Below are positions 1 to 3,000 of a DNA stretch of 22,206 bases, piece by piece. Source of the DNA: a virus (Duplodnaviria; Heunggongvirae; Uroviricota; Caudoviricetes). Each line of letters starts with the position of its first letter. Positions within the stretch are counted from its first letter, which is position 1. A program made the position numbers. The DNA lies in the IMG/VR virus record IMGVR_UViG_2529293040_000022. One strand, given 5' to 3'.

Positions 1-3000
1 TTACTGAGAGCTCAGATCAACTTTCCAGGGCAACAGATCGCGTACCCGGTTTGCCGGCCAGTCCTGGATATGTTCAATGACGTAACGCAGCCACTTTTCT
101 GGCTCCACATTGTTCAGACGGCATGTGCCGATCAGCGAGTACAACACCGCCGCATGTTCACCACCGCTGTCGGAACCCGCGAACATCCAGTTTTTCCGGC
201 CTACGGCCACTCCCCGTAAGGCGTTCTCTGCGATGTTGTTGTCGATTTCCACCCAGCCATTACTGCAGTACACGTTCAGTGCATCCCACTGTTTCAGCAG
301 GTATGCGAACGCTTTTGCCGTATCTGAGTGACGCGACAGTGTTTTCATCTGTTGCTGTATCCAGTCATACAGTGACTGCATCAGTGGCGCGGCTCTGGCT
401 TTTCTTGCCGCCAGACGCTGTTCTGCTGAACAGCACCGGACCTCTGCCTCGATGGCATACAGTTCACCGATACGCTGCAGGGCTTCCGTGGTGATGTAGG
501 TGGGCGCTCTTGCATGCACATCGTGGATTTTTCTCCGGGCATGAGCCATACACGCGGCTTCCGTTATTCTGCCGGATTCGTATAACGCCCGGTAACCACC
601 GTAAGCATCGGCCTGAAGCACACCGCTGTAACCGGCCAGGTGATTTTGTGGATGGATACCTTTCCGGTCCGGACTGTACGCGAACCAGACCGCCGGGGGC
701 ATCTGTGAACCGGCGTTACGGTCATCACGGACGTAGACCCACAGCCGGGCTGTCCGGGTTTTACCGCTGCCCGGCTCCTGGACCGGGACGGGGATATCAT
801 CAGCATGGACTTTACCGGGCATCAGCACATACTGGCGCAGGACGTCATACAGCGGCTCCAGCAGTTCAGCAACAGCACCTGTCCAGCGCCCCAGTGTGGC
901 ACGGCTCAGCTCCACGCCCTGACGACGGTATATTTCTGACTGGCGGTATAACGGCAGATGGTCTGCATATTTCCCGGTGACAACATGGGCCAGAAGCCCC
1001 GCTCCGGCATAACTGCGTGCAATGGGTTTTGAAGGTACTGGTGCCTGCACGATATGGTCGCACCGGCAACAGGCCTGTTTCGGACGTTGTGTTTCGATAA
1101 CCTTAAAGGCGCTGCTGATAAGCTCCAGTTGCTCTGACACATCACATCCCAGAGAACTGAGTTCACCACCACAGGCAGGACAGCATTCCTCTTCCGGCCG
1201 GATAACCCGGGTTTCACGGGGAAGTGAGGCCGGTAACGGTTTACGGGCTGAAGACTGGCGCAGGGCGGATGGCAGTACCGGGTCATATTGCTCACCCAGC
1301 GTTTCCGCCATTTCTTCCTGAAGTGCGCTGATTCGCTCCTGTGCTTCCTGTATCTGCCGTTCGGTTTTTGCACGAAGTTTTTCTGAGCTTTTACCGAACT
1401 GCATACGTTGCAGTTTCGCAACCAGCGCCTTCAGCCGGTTGATTTCGGAAGCATAAGCCGCCACCCGCTGTGAGAGCAGGCGGTTGTATTCAGCCATCTG
1501 GCGGATGGTGTCCTGTTGCGTCTGCAACAGTGCCCGCAGGCGGGCGTTCTCATGAGCAAGTGAGGTGTCCATATCCTCACTTTTACAACGGGTTATATGC
1601 GGATTCCAGCGCGTTCCGTTCGTTTCGGGTGCTTCCAGTTGATACCTTCAAGAAGCATGGATAACTGAGCCGGAGTAAGGTGCACCTTGCCGTCACGGGT
1701 GACTGGCCAGACGAAGCGGCCCCGCTCCAGGCGTTTGGTGAAGAGGCACAGTCCGTCACTGTCAGCCCACAACACTTTTATCTGGTCACCCCGGCGTCCG
1801 CGGAAGATGAACAGGTGTCCGGAGAACGGGTCATCCTTCAGGACGTTCTGAACTTTTGATGCCAGGCCGTTAAAGCCATTTCGCATATCGGTGATACCTG
1901 CAACCAGCCAGATACGCGAACCTGCAGGGAGAGATATCATCAGTGGCTGCTCCCTTTTATTTCGCGGATAAGTGTCTGTAATAACGCCGGCGTCAGTTTA
2001 CCTTTAAGCCTGAGAGTTCCGGCCGGCAGAACCAGCTCACAACACAGACTGTCGGACGGTGTATTTATCTGCTCTGGTTCCTGTGCGGGGGCCGGGATTT
2101 TATTATCCGGCTCCGGCGTTAACGTCACGGGAAGCAGTGCCGGCATATTTTTTCCGGAAGGCAGCAGGCCACCTTTCCGGTATTGATGGCGCCAGTTGAA
2201 GAGCAGGTTATCGTTGATTCCGTTTTCCCGGGCGATCTGCGCCACACAGGCTCCGGGCTGCAGTGACTGCTCCACTAAGGCGATTTTAAACTCATAAGGG
2301 AAGTTGGGCCGCCGGGGACGTTTTTTACCACGGGGGCTTCGGATATAACGGTGCTTTCAGGACGTACGACTGGTACCGTGGAAAATTGTCCGTAAAGGCA
2401 GGCATCAAGTTCCTGCTCCGACATGCCTGCGGGCAAAGGCCACGAAAGGCCAGCTCTCCGAAAGCGCACGAACATACTACAAACTGTTGATTTTGGTACA
2501 CCCAGGCGACGCCCGGCCACAACCCGGGGTAAATGTTCTTCAAAGTGAAGACGTAAAGCTTCAGTGATCCAGGTCCGGTGTTTCATACGATAGTGTCCAT
2601 TAAAAATGATGGACATTATTTTTGTAGAGCCGGAGGAAACAGACCAGACGGTTTAAATGAGCCGGTTACTTTTTACGGCCTCATAAGCCTGGATCACCGC
2701 ACGGGAACGCAGCCTTGCCGCTTTCCATCCTGGTGAAAAAACGCCAATCACATCATCAAGAATTGCCATCAGAACCTCGCCAGCCGATACCCGGGATGCC
2801 CCCGTCGTCGTGTAATCAGAGCCGCAAGGCGGCGCTCCCACTCCTGCCGTCCCTGCCGGATCTCAGATAAGTTTTCCATGGTCATCTGCTGACCATTAAA
2901 GGTGACGGATTTTCCGTCCAGCACCGCCATTTCAGCTTCCGTATAACGCTGAATCATGGCTTCGATATCATTCTGGTTCATAACCATCCTCCGGAAGTCA

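What the first reader, a model, noticed from the sequence alone, without database searches (positions are those of the whole stretch)
1..2769. IS66-family element truncating the morphogenesis genes immediately after gpW
Seen in sequence: after gpW a coupled ATG opens a frame that runs only 39 codons before the IS66 ORF string begins. By lambda gene order this should be the portal gene. Inference: together with the integrase frameshift, this makes the prophage a likely cryptic element unable to make virions, while its lysis, immunity and cargo genes remain intact. The IS end itself and any target-site duplication could not be defined because the other IS end is outside the window.
Basis: partly seen in the sequence, partly recalled or inferred. 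Interest (0 to 1): 0.45.

Follow-up and report, generated by a model that had tools for sequence, protein, structure and literature searches.

The report
ISCro1 insertion splitting a prophage portal gene
A well-known 2.7-kb jumping gene (ISCro1, IS66 family) has landed 100 bases into the portal gene of a lambda-like prophage in E. coli strain DEC2A, which should stop that prophage building virus heads on its own; this is an ordinary kind of prophage decay.

Summary
Window 1..2669 (minus strand) is a copy of ISCro1, a known 2,699-bp IS66-family element (tnpA-tnpB-tnpC). It lacks only its last 30 bp, because the source draft contig (E. coli DEC2A, AIFA01000052.1) ends inside the IS, 19 nt left of window position 1.

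The 38-aa ORF at 2653..2769 consists of the first 33 residues of a 491-aa lambda-family portal plus five IS-encoded residues. That portal is at least 98% identical in the viable phages mEp460 and cdtI. The IS end (2669) and the 8-bp target duplication (CGTAAAAA, 2670..2677) are now defined, using five independent ISCro1 insertions, an intact portal, and one closed genome (24AR0142) with the identical junction.

In 24AR0142 the rest of the portal and the whole head-tail module follow the IS. So this is a simple insertion there, not a truncation of the module. For DEC2A itself, that side is not in the contig.

The integrase frameshift is real (A8 to A7; the same fragment occurs on 125 contigs).

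Other lesions all sit in homopolymer runs and may be sequencing errors: IS tnpA, the TerL 3' end and the cargo ORF.

Verdict: an ordinary, already known kind of event. Low interest.

The parts
1..2669 (-). ISCro1 (IS66 family) copy. It is complete except for the terminal 30 bp on the tnpC side, which lie off the window. 19 of those 30 bp are in the source contig; the last 11 are not assembled.
   Evidence: Six closed-genome copies are all 2,699 bp. The window copy equals the L006 copy apart from two homopolymer indels. IS ends were defined from five independent insertions. The contig end is shown. A published ISCro1 copy is 2,699 bp with an 8-bp TSD (PMC12115866).
1..1572 (-). tnpC, DDE transposase, 523 aa, intact.
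   Evidence: Pfam DDE_Tnp_IS66 3.7e-103, zf-IS66, LZ_Tnp_IS66, DDE_Tnp_IS66_C. The exact sequence is on 307 contigs and is named 'ISCro1 family transposase'.
1593..1940 (-). tnpB, IS66 accessory protein, 115 aa, intact.
   Evidence: Pfam TnpB_IS66 4.7e-40.
1940..2616 (-). tnpA accessory gene, frameshifted. It reads as a 113-aa ORF (2275..2616) plus a 111-aa ORF (1940..2275) instead of one 225-aa protein.
   Evidence: The intact 225-aa TnpA of L001 matches NF038385 over its full length (294.9 bits). The window's 113-aa piece covers only profile positions 1-80. The alignment shows a 1-nt deletion.
2321..2326 (.). T6 run (A6 on the sense strand) where all other copies have T7. This is the site of the tnpA frameshift.
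   Evidence: Only 10 of 1,853 closed records with this IS segment carry the T6 form.
2644..2669 (-). Left terminal inverted repeat of the IS, GTAACCGGCTCATTTAAACCGTCTGG.
   Evidence: It pairs with GTAAGCGGCTCGTCAGAACCGTATTG at the other end in closed copies: 18 of 26 positions match, and both begin GTAA.
2670..2677 (-). Target-site sequence CGTAAAAA (portal nt 93-100). This is the one copy of the 8-bp duplication visible in the window.
   Evidence: The intact portal reads GAGGC-CGTAAAAA-CGACG. 24AR0142 has CGTAAAAA on both sides of the IS.
2653..2769 (-). Truncated portal ORF, 38 aa. It has 33 native residues (2671..2769), then S-N-R-L-I and a stop read from the IS end.
   Evidence: It is annotated 'portal domain protein [E. 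coli DEC2A]', EHU28100.1. The PHROG hits are to portal N-terminal fragments.
2769..2987 (-). gpW-position gene (head-tail adaptor). It is called as 70 aa from 2981 in relatives. Its stop overlaps the portal ATG (ATGA).
   Evidence: phrog_118 'head-tail adaptor' E=1.4e-37. No Pfam hit. The homologous gene in viable phages is annotated protein W / Ad1 adaptor.
3018..5075 (-). Large terminase (gpA type), 685 aa as assembled. Two single-base deletions in T runs (3038..3041 and 3043..3047) replace the last 22 residues and break coupling to the next gene.
   Evidence: Pfam GpA_ATPase and GpA_nuclease. These are the only 2 gaps in 3.1 kb against the closest relatives. Relatives are 699 aa, and this form is found only in DEC2A.

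Best explanation
A copy of the known insertion sequence ISCro1 (IS66 family, 2,699 bp) transposed into the portal gene of an mEp460/lambda-like prophage of E. coli DEC2A.

It inserted at the 8-bp target CGTAAAAA (portal nt 93-100), in the same orientation as the phage late operon.

The portal reading frame now ends after 33 native codons plus five IS-encoded codons. The remaining 458 codons have no usable start, so no portal protein is made. Because the portal nucleates prohead assembly and is the DNA entry channel, the prophage cannot package DNA by itself.

Together with a genuine integrase frameshift, this makes the prophage defective (inferred, not tested).

The missing right end of the IS reflects a draft-assembly break in a repeated element, not a biological truncation.
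For: Shown directly:
- IS66 gene set and domains.
- Window 1..2669 matches a closed-genome ISCro1 copy with no substitutions and two 1-nt indels.
- IS termini and 8-bp duplications were read from five independent insertions.
- An intact portal gives the empty site.
- The identical left junction, plus the matching right junction, portal remainder and full head-tail module, are present in closed genome 24AR0142.
- The contig ends 19 nt past the window edge, inside the IS.
- In 24AR0142 the portal frame downstream of the IS has an in-frame stop 14 codons upstream of the resumed portal sequence. There is no ATG, GTG or TTG before portal codon 54.
- The intact portal is at least 98% identical in viable phages.
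- Integrase repair by one A gives 426/428 identity to an intact 428-aa integrase. The truncated form is on 125 contigs.

From established knowledge:
- IS66-family elements make 8-bp duplications and use tnpA, tnpB and tnpC (Han et al. 2001, J Bacteriol 183:4296; not readable here).
- The portal is essential for tailed-phage head assembly.
Against: - The right junction in DEC2A itself is not in the contig, so the simple-insertion model is transferred from one other genome. That genome's prophage differs (TerL only 87% identical), and its IS copy differs at 22 positions.
- No experiment shows loss of virion production.
- A co-resident prophage in DEC2A with the same gpW and portal start could supply portal in trans or by recombination.
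Confidence: 0.88

Rival explanations
1. IS-associated deletion or rearrangement. After insertion, recombination between ISCro1 copies removed or relocated the portal remainder and head-tail genes. On this view the morphogenesis module really is truncated in DEC2A.
For: The far side of the IS is not assembled. ISCro1 copies are known to mediate homologous recombination and deletions (PMC12115866). One insertion examined (L007) lacks a matching duplication, which shows that such rearrangements occur.
Against: The only closed genome with this junction keeps everything downstream. A contig break inside a multi-copy IS is the expected behaviour of a draft assembly and needs no deletion.
Confidence: 0.12
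2. The prophage is not functionally dead. The second lambdoid prophage of DEC2A supplies portal (and integrase-independent escape) in trans, or recombines across the shared gpW and portal sequence to regenerate a complete phage.
For: DEC2A contig AIFA01000033 carries an intact 700-aa TerL, W and the same portal start. Defective, IS-hit prophages of E. coli O157 Sakai are still packaged and recombine with one another (PMC2669165).
Against: That contig also stops at portal nt 93, so an intact second portal is not demonstrated. TerL is only 87% identical between the two prophages. Nothing was tested experimentally.
Confidence: 0.2
3. The junction is an assembly chimera that joins unrelated reads.
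For: The source is an old draft assembly with homopolymer-length oddities.
Against: The break falls exactly at the canonical IS terminus GTAACC. A 100-nt stretch across the junction is 100% identical in an independently sequenced closed genome.
Confidence: 0.02

Closest known systems
ISCro1 (IS66 family; first named in Citrobacter rodentium ICC168, widespread in E. coli chromosomes and plasmids)
   Same: The tnpA-tnpB-tnpC order is the same. TnpC is identical to proteins named 'ISCro1 family transposase'. There are no substitutions against a closed-genome copy. Full length is 2,699 bp with an 8-bp TSD, as published.
   Different: This copy has a 1-nt deletion in an A7 run that splits tnpA, and one extra T in the tnpB-tnpC spacer. 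Its last 30 bp are off the window.
IS679 / IS66 prototype elements (Han et al. 2001)
   Same: Three-gene organisation, imperfect terminal repeats of about 20-26 bp beginning GTAA, and an 8-bp duplication.
   Different: It is a different family member. TnpA here is a longer 225-aa form, with an extra N-terminal region ahead of the HTH_Tnp_1 part.
IS-disrupted lambdoid prophages of EHEC O157 Sakai (Asadulghani et al. 2009, PMC2669165)
   Same: A lambdoid prophage carries several small lesions (an IS insertion in a morphogenesis gene, a frameshifted integrase) while its regulatory and lysis genes persist, in a genome with several related prophages.
   Different: The IS, the host lineage (EPEC DEC2A) and the gene hit are different. 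No activity data exist for this prophage.
Phage mEp460 / cdtI-type head module (TerS-TerL-W-portal-protease/capsid fusion)
   Same: The gene order is the same, and the portal whose N-terminus survives here is at least 98% identical.
   Different: In those phages the portal is an uninterrupted 491 aa.

Membership tests
IS66 family | DDE transposase TnpC with the IS66 catalytic domain | tested here: met
   PF03050 E=3.7e-103 across the full profile, plus zf-IS66, LZ_Tnp_IS66 and the IS66 C-terminal element.
IS66 family | TnpB (IS66 Orf2) gene directly upstream of tnpC | tested here: met
   PF05717 E=4.7e-40. tnpB is 1593..1940, and tnpA/tnpB overlap at 1940.
IS66 family | TnpA accessory gene as the first ORF | tested here: met
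   The gene is present but frameshifted in this copy. The 113-aa piece scores 97 bits on NF038385 (cut-off 150). The intact 225-aa homologue scores 294.9.
IS66 family | Imperfect terminal inverted repeats beginning GTAA | tested here: met
   The left repeat is at 2644..2669. The right repeat was read in six closed copies, with 18/26 matches. The right repeat of this copy is off the window and only partly in the contig.
IS66 family | 8-bp target-site duplication | tested here: met
   Five independent insertions have 8-bp duplications: CGTAAAAA, TGTTAAAA, GATTAAAG, GTAAAGCA and GATAAACA. For DEC2A itself only one copy is visible, so its own duplication is not testable with these data.
ISCro1 (specific element) | Near-identity to the reference element over its full length | tested here: inconclusive
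   The window copy is identical, apart from two indels, to copies that RefSeq annotates as ISCro1. The length agrees with the published 2,699 bp. The ISfinder reference sequence itself was not available.
Lambda-family portal protein (Pfam Phage_portal_2) | The fragment is the N-terminus of a protein carrying the portal domain | tested here: met
   33/33 residues are identical to the 491-aa L002 protein, which matches PF05136 at E=4.4e-82 over residues 35-372. The fragment itself stops before the domain begins.
Lambda gpW (head-tail joining protein) | Sequence membership in the gpW family | tested here: inconclusive
   No Pfam family at E<=0.001. There is a strong match to phrog_118 'head-tail adaptor', E=1.4e-37. 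The gene has the same position as W, and homologues in phages are annotated W / Ad1.

The most novel reading that the evidence does not exclude
The A6 form of tnpA may not be an error or a dead allele. The deletion leaves the heptamer A_AAA_AAC in the zero frame, and a -1 ribosomal slip on it would read V-K-K-R and restore the full 225-aa TnpA. Such copies would then make a short HTH protein plus a low level of full-length TnpA, in the manner of IS3-family OrfA/OrfAB.
Probability: 0.04. Interest if true: 0.3.

Novelty: already known. Interest (0 to 1): 0.1.

Why it matters
It matters little beyond annotation. It shows how this DEC2A prophage was disabled, and it gives the exact IS boundary and target site.

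It also carries a practical warning. A window edge that coincides with a draft-contig break in a repeat should not be read as a biological truncation. Homopolymer frameshifts in this assembly need re-sequencing before they are counted as lesions.

Tried and rejected
- Source genome in closed E. coli genomes. None covers more than 64% of window 2673..14000, so the DEC2A lineage or prophage is not represented there.
- Contig with the portal remainder in DEC2A. Exact look-up of the 38-aa fragment found only the source contig. Look-up of the 31-aa partial found a second DEC2A prophage contig that also stops in the portal. I found no way to target other DEC2A contigs, so the right junction in DEC2A stays unseen.
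- DEC collection paper (PMC3370608) and Han et al. 2001 (PMC95320). Neither is held, so the sequencing platform could not be confirmed.
- A restart of the portal from an IS-borne start codon. Rejected: there is an in-frame stop, and no start before codon 54.
- An outward promoter or terminator in the IS. The consensus scans gave nothing above shuffled expectation.
- The cargo ORF as a defence gene. No PADLOC, Pfam or NCBIfam family matched; the only hit was phrog_7003, of unknown function.
- Common descent versus independent insertion for the DEC2A and 24AR0142 junctions. This could not be resolved. About 1 kb spanning the junction is near-identical, but both flanks diverge.

Full report
**What is at 1..2769**

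The minus strand carries, in order:
- a 72-aa gpW-position ORF (2769..2987);
- an ATGA-coupled 38-codon ORF (2653..2769);
- four ORFs at 2275..2616, 1940..2275, 1593..1940 and 1..1572.

Pfam identifies the last ORF as an IS66 DDE transposase (E=3.7e-103, with the zinc-finger, leucine-zipper and C-terminal IS66 modules). The third is IS66 TnpB (E=4.7e-40). The second carries the HTH_Tnp_1 part of TnpA.

A megablast against 5,426 complete E. coli genomes finds this segment in 1,309 of them, annotated 'IS66-like element ISCro1'.

**Exact ends of the IS**

I extracted six closed-genome copies. All are 2,699 bp, which matches a published ISCro1 copy of 2,699 bp with an 8-bp duplication (PMC12115866).

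Five independent insertions all begin GTAACCGGCTC and end GCTTAC, each flanked by an 8-bp direct repeat. They are in the portal, TerL, tssF, traD and an HK97-gp10 gene.

In window coordinates:
- the IS terminus is 2669;
- the left inverted repeat is 2644..2669;
- the target copy, CGTAAAAA on the sense strand, is 2670..2677.

The empty site is visible in an intact portal gene (L002: GAGGC-CGTAAAAA-CGACG).

**The 38-aa ORF**

Its first 33 residues are identical to those of the 491-aa L002 portal, which matches Pfam Phage_portal_2 at E=4.4e-82. That portal is 98-99% identical in the isolated phages mEp460, cdtI, Ayreon and Tritos, where the upstream gene is annotated protein W or Ad1 adaptor.

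Codon 34 straddles the junction, and S-N-R-L-I-stop is read from the IS end.

The gpW label rests on position and on phrog_118 'head-tail adaptor' (E=1.4e-37). No Pfam family matched.

**Why the other IS end is missing**

Exact look-up of the 38-aa product finds a single contig: AIFA01000052.1 of GCA_000249155.2, E. coli DEC2A. In that contig the locus occupies positions 1-12,788.

The contig runs only 19 nt beyond the tnpC stop. Those 19 nt are IS sequence, and the contig ends 11 nt short of the IS terminus. The window edge is therefore a draft-assembly break in a repeated element.

**Insertion or truncation?**

A 100-nt probe across the junction is matched in full by one closed genome, 24AR0142. 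The reciprocal right-junction probe finds the same genome.

In that genome the IS is followed by the second CGTAAAAA, then the rest of the portal, the protease/capsid fusion gene, and the head-completion and tail genes. So the event is a simple insertion there.

I could not reach the corresponding DEC2A contig. For DEC2A this remains an inference (about 0.85), against an IS-mediated deletion (about 0.12).

**Consequence for the portal**

In 24AR0142, the portal frame downstream of the IS is closed by a stop 14 codons upstream of the resumed portal sequence. There is no ATG, GTG or TTG before portal codon 54. No near-full-length portal can be made. Since the portal is essential for prohead assembly and DNA packaging (established knowledge), the prophage is portal-null.

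**Integrase**

The integrase is split at an A7 run (21279..21285). Adding one A gives a 428-aa protein that is 426/428 identical to an intact integrase. The exact 126-aa N-terminal fragment is present on 125 contigs, including complete genomes. This lesion is real.

**Caveats on the other 'lesions'**

Every indel private to this assembly lies in a homopolymer.

| Site (window) | Change | Effect |
|---|---|---|
| 1578..1581, tnpB-tnpC spacer | T3 to T4 | none apparent |
| 2321..2326, tnpA | T7 to T6 | splits tnpA |
| 3038..3041 and 3043..3047, TerL 3' end | two single-base losses | removes the last 22 residues and the coupling to W |
| 8918..8924, cargo ORF | A8 to A7 | 287 aa instead of 306 aa |

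Further points:
- The IS copy otherwise has no substitutions against a closed copy.
- The T6 form of tnpA occurs in only 10 of 1,853 closed records.
- The 113-aa product is reported from several genomes of the same DEC sequencing project.
- The TerL form is found in DEC2A only.
- The cargo ORF change sits in a region that is otherwise 99.76% identical to closed genome F719.

These changes may be real slippage mutations or homopolymer miscalls.

**Context**

The prophage is a mosaic:
- an mEp460-type packaging and head start;
- a lysis cassette;
- a Q, primase and helicase region that is 97.8% identical to Stx2f prophages and 99.8% identical to a prophage of strain F719;
- a cI-like repressor with an S24 peptidase domain, a Cro-like gene, an excisionase and the frameshifted integrase.

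DEC2A has a second lambdoid prophage contig with an intact TerL, W and the same portal start. Work on E. coli O157 Sakai shows that such defective prophage pools can still release packaged DNA and recombine (PMC2669165). 'Cannot make virions' should therefore be read as 'cannot on its own'.

**Comparison and novelty**

The element is a member of the IS66 family by every feature that could be tested. It is indistinguishable from ISCro1 as annotated in RefSeq. An IS insertion in a prophage morphogenesis gene is a familiar route of prophage decay, so nothing here is new in kind.

The only mildly unusual reading left open concerns the A6 tnpA allele. It places the slippery heptamer A_AAA_AAC in frame, and a -1 slip would restore TnpA. 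I give this about 4%.

Noticed in passing
window 2321..2326 (and 1578..1581): The tnpA of this ISCro1 copy is split by a T7 to T6 change, and the tnpB-tnpC spacer has one extra T. The copy otherwise has no substitutions against a closed-genome copy. The T6 form is present in only 10 of 1,853 closed records, and in several DEC-project drafts.
   Followed up: yes
window 3038..3047: Two adjacent single-base deletions in T runs at the 3' end of the large terminase gene replace its last 22 residues and undo the ATGA coupling to the W-like gene. This form is found only in the DEC2A assembly.
   Followed up: partly
window 8087..8950 (+), A run 8918..8924: An opposite-strand ORF of unknown function (phrog_7003) lies between the Q antiterminator and the holin. 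It is 287 aa here and 306 aa in closed genome F719, because of an A8 to A7 difference. It has no Pfam, NCBIfam or PADLOC family.
   Followed up: partly
window 20921..22206, A run 21279..21285: The integrase frameshift (A8 to A7) is genuine and widespread. The identical 126-aa fragment is on 125 contigs, including complete genomes. Restoring one A gives a 428-aa integrase.
   Followed up: yes
L009 (DEC2A contig AIFA01000033.1), 8160..8252; also the ends of L008 and L010-L013: A second lambdoid prophage in DEC2A has an intact 700-aa TerL, W and the same portal start, and its contig stops at portal nt 93. Contigs from several unrelated assemblies stop at nt 93-95 of this portal gene too. This suggests a common repeat or mosaic boundary there.
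   Followed up: partly
L002 6385..9083 (and hit H3): In two ETEC genomes ISCro1 sits in the 3' end of the terminase gene (TSD TGTTAAAA), about 370 bp from the DEC2A site. All five duplications examined contain TAAA.
   Followed up: partly
L001 5971..8669 vs window 1..2669: The only closed genome with the same portal junction carries an IS copy that differs at 22 positions, 12 of them within window 862..1076, in a prophage whose TerL is only 87% identical. This points either to gene conversion after a shared insertion or to two independent hits on the same site.
   Followed up: partly
window ~6458..14000: The replication, Q and lysis region is 97.8% identical to Stx2f-converting prophages, which carry stxA2f within the matched span. 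The window has no stx genes.
   Followed up: no
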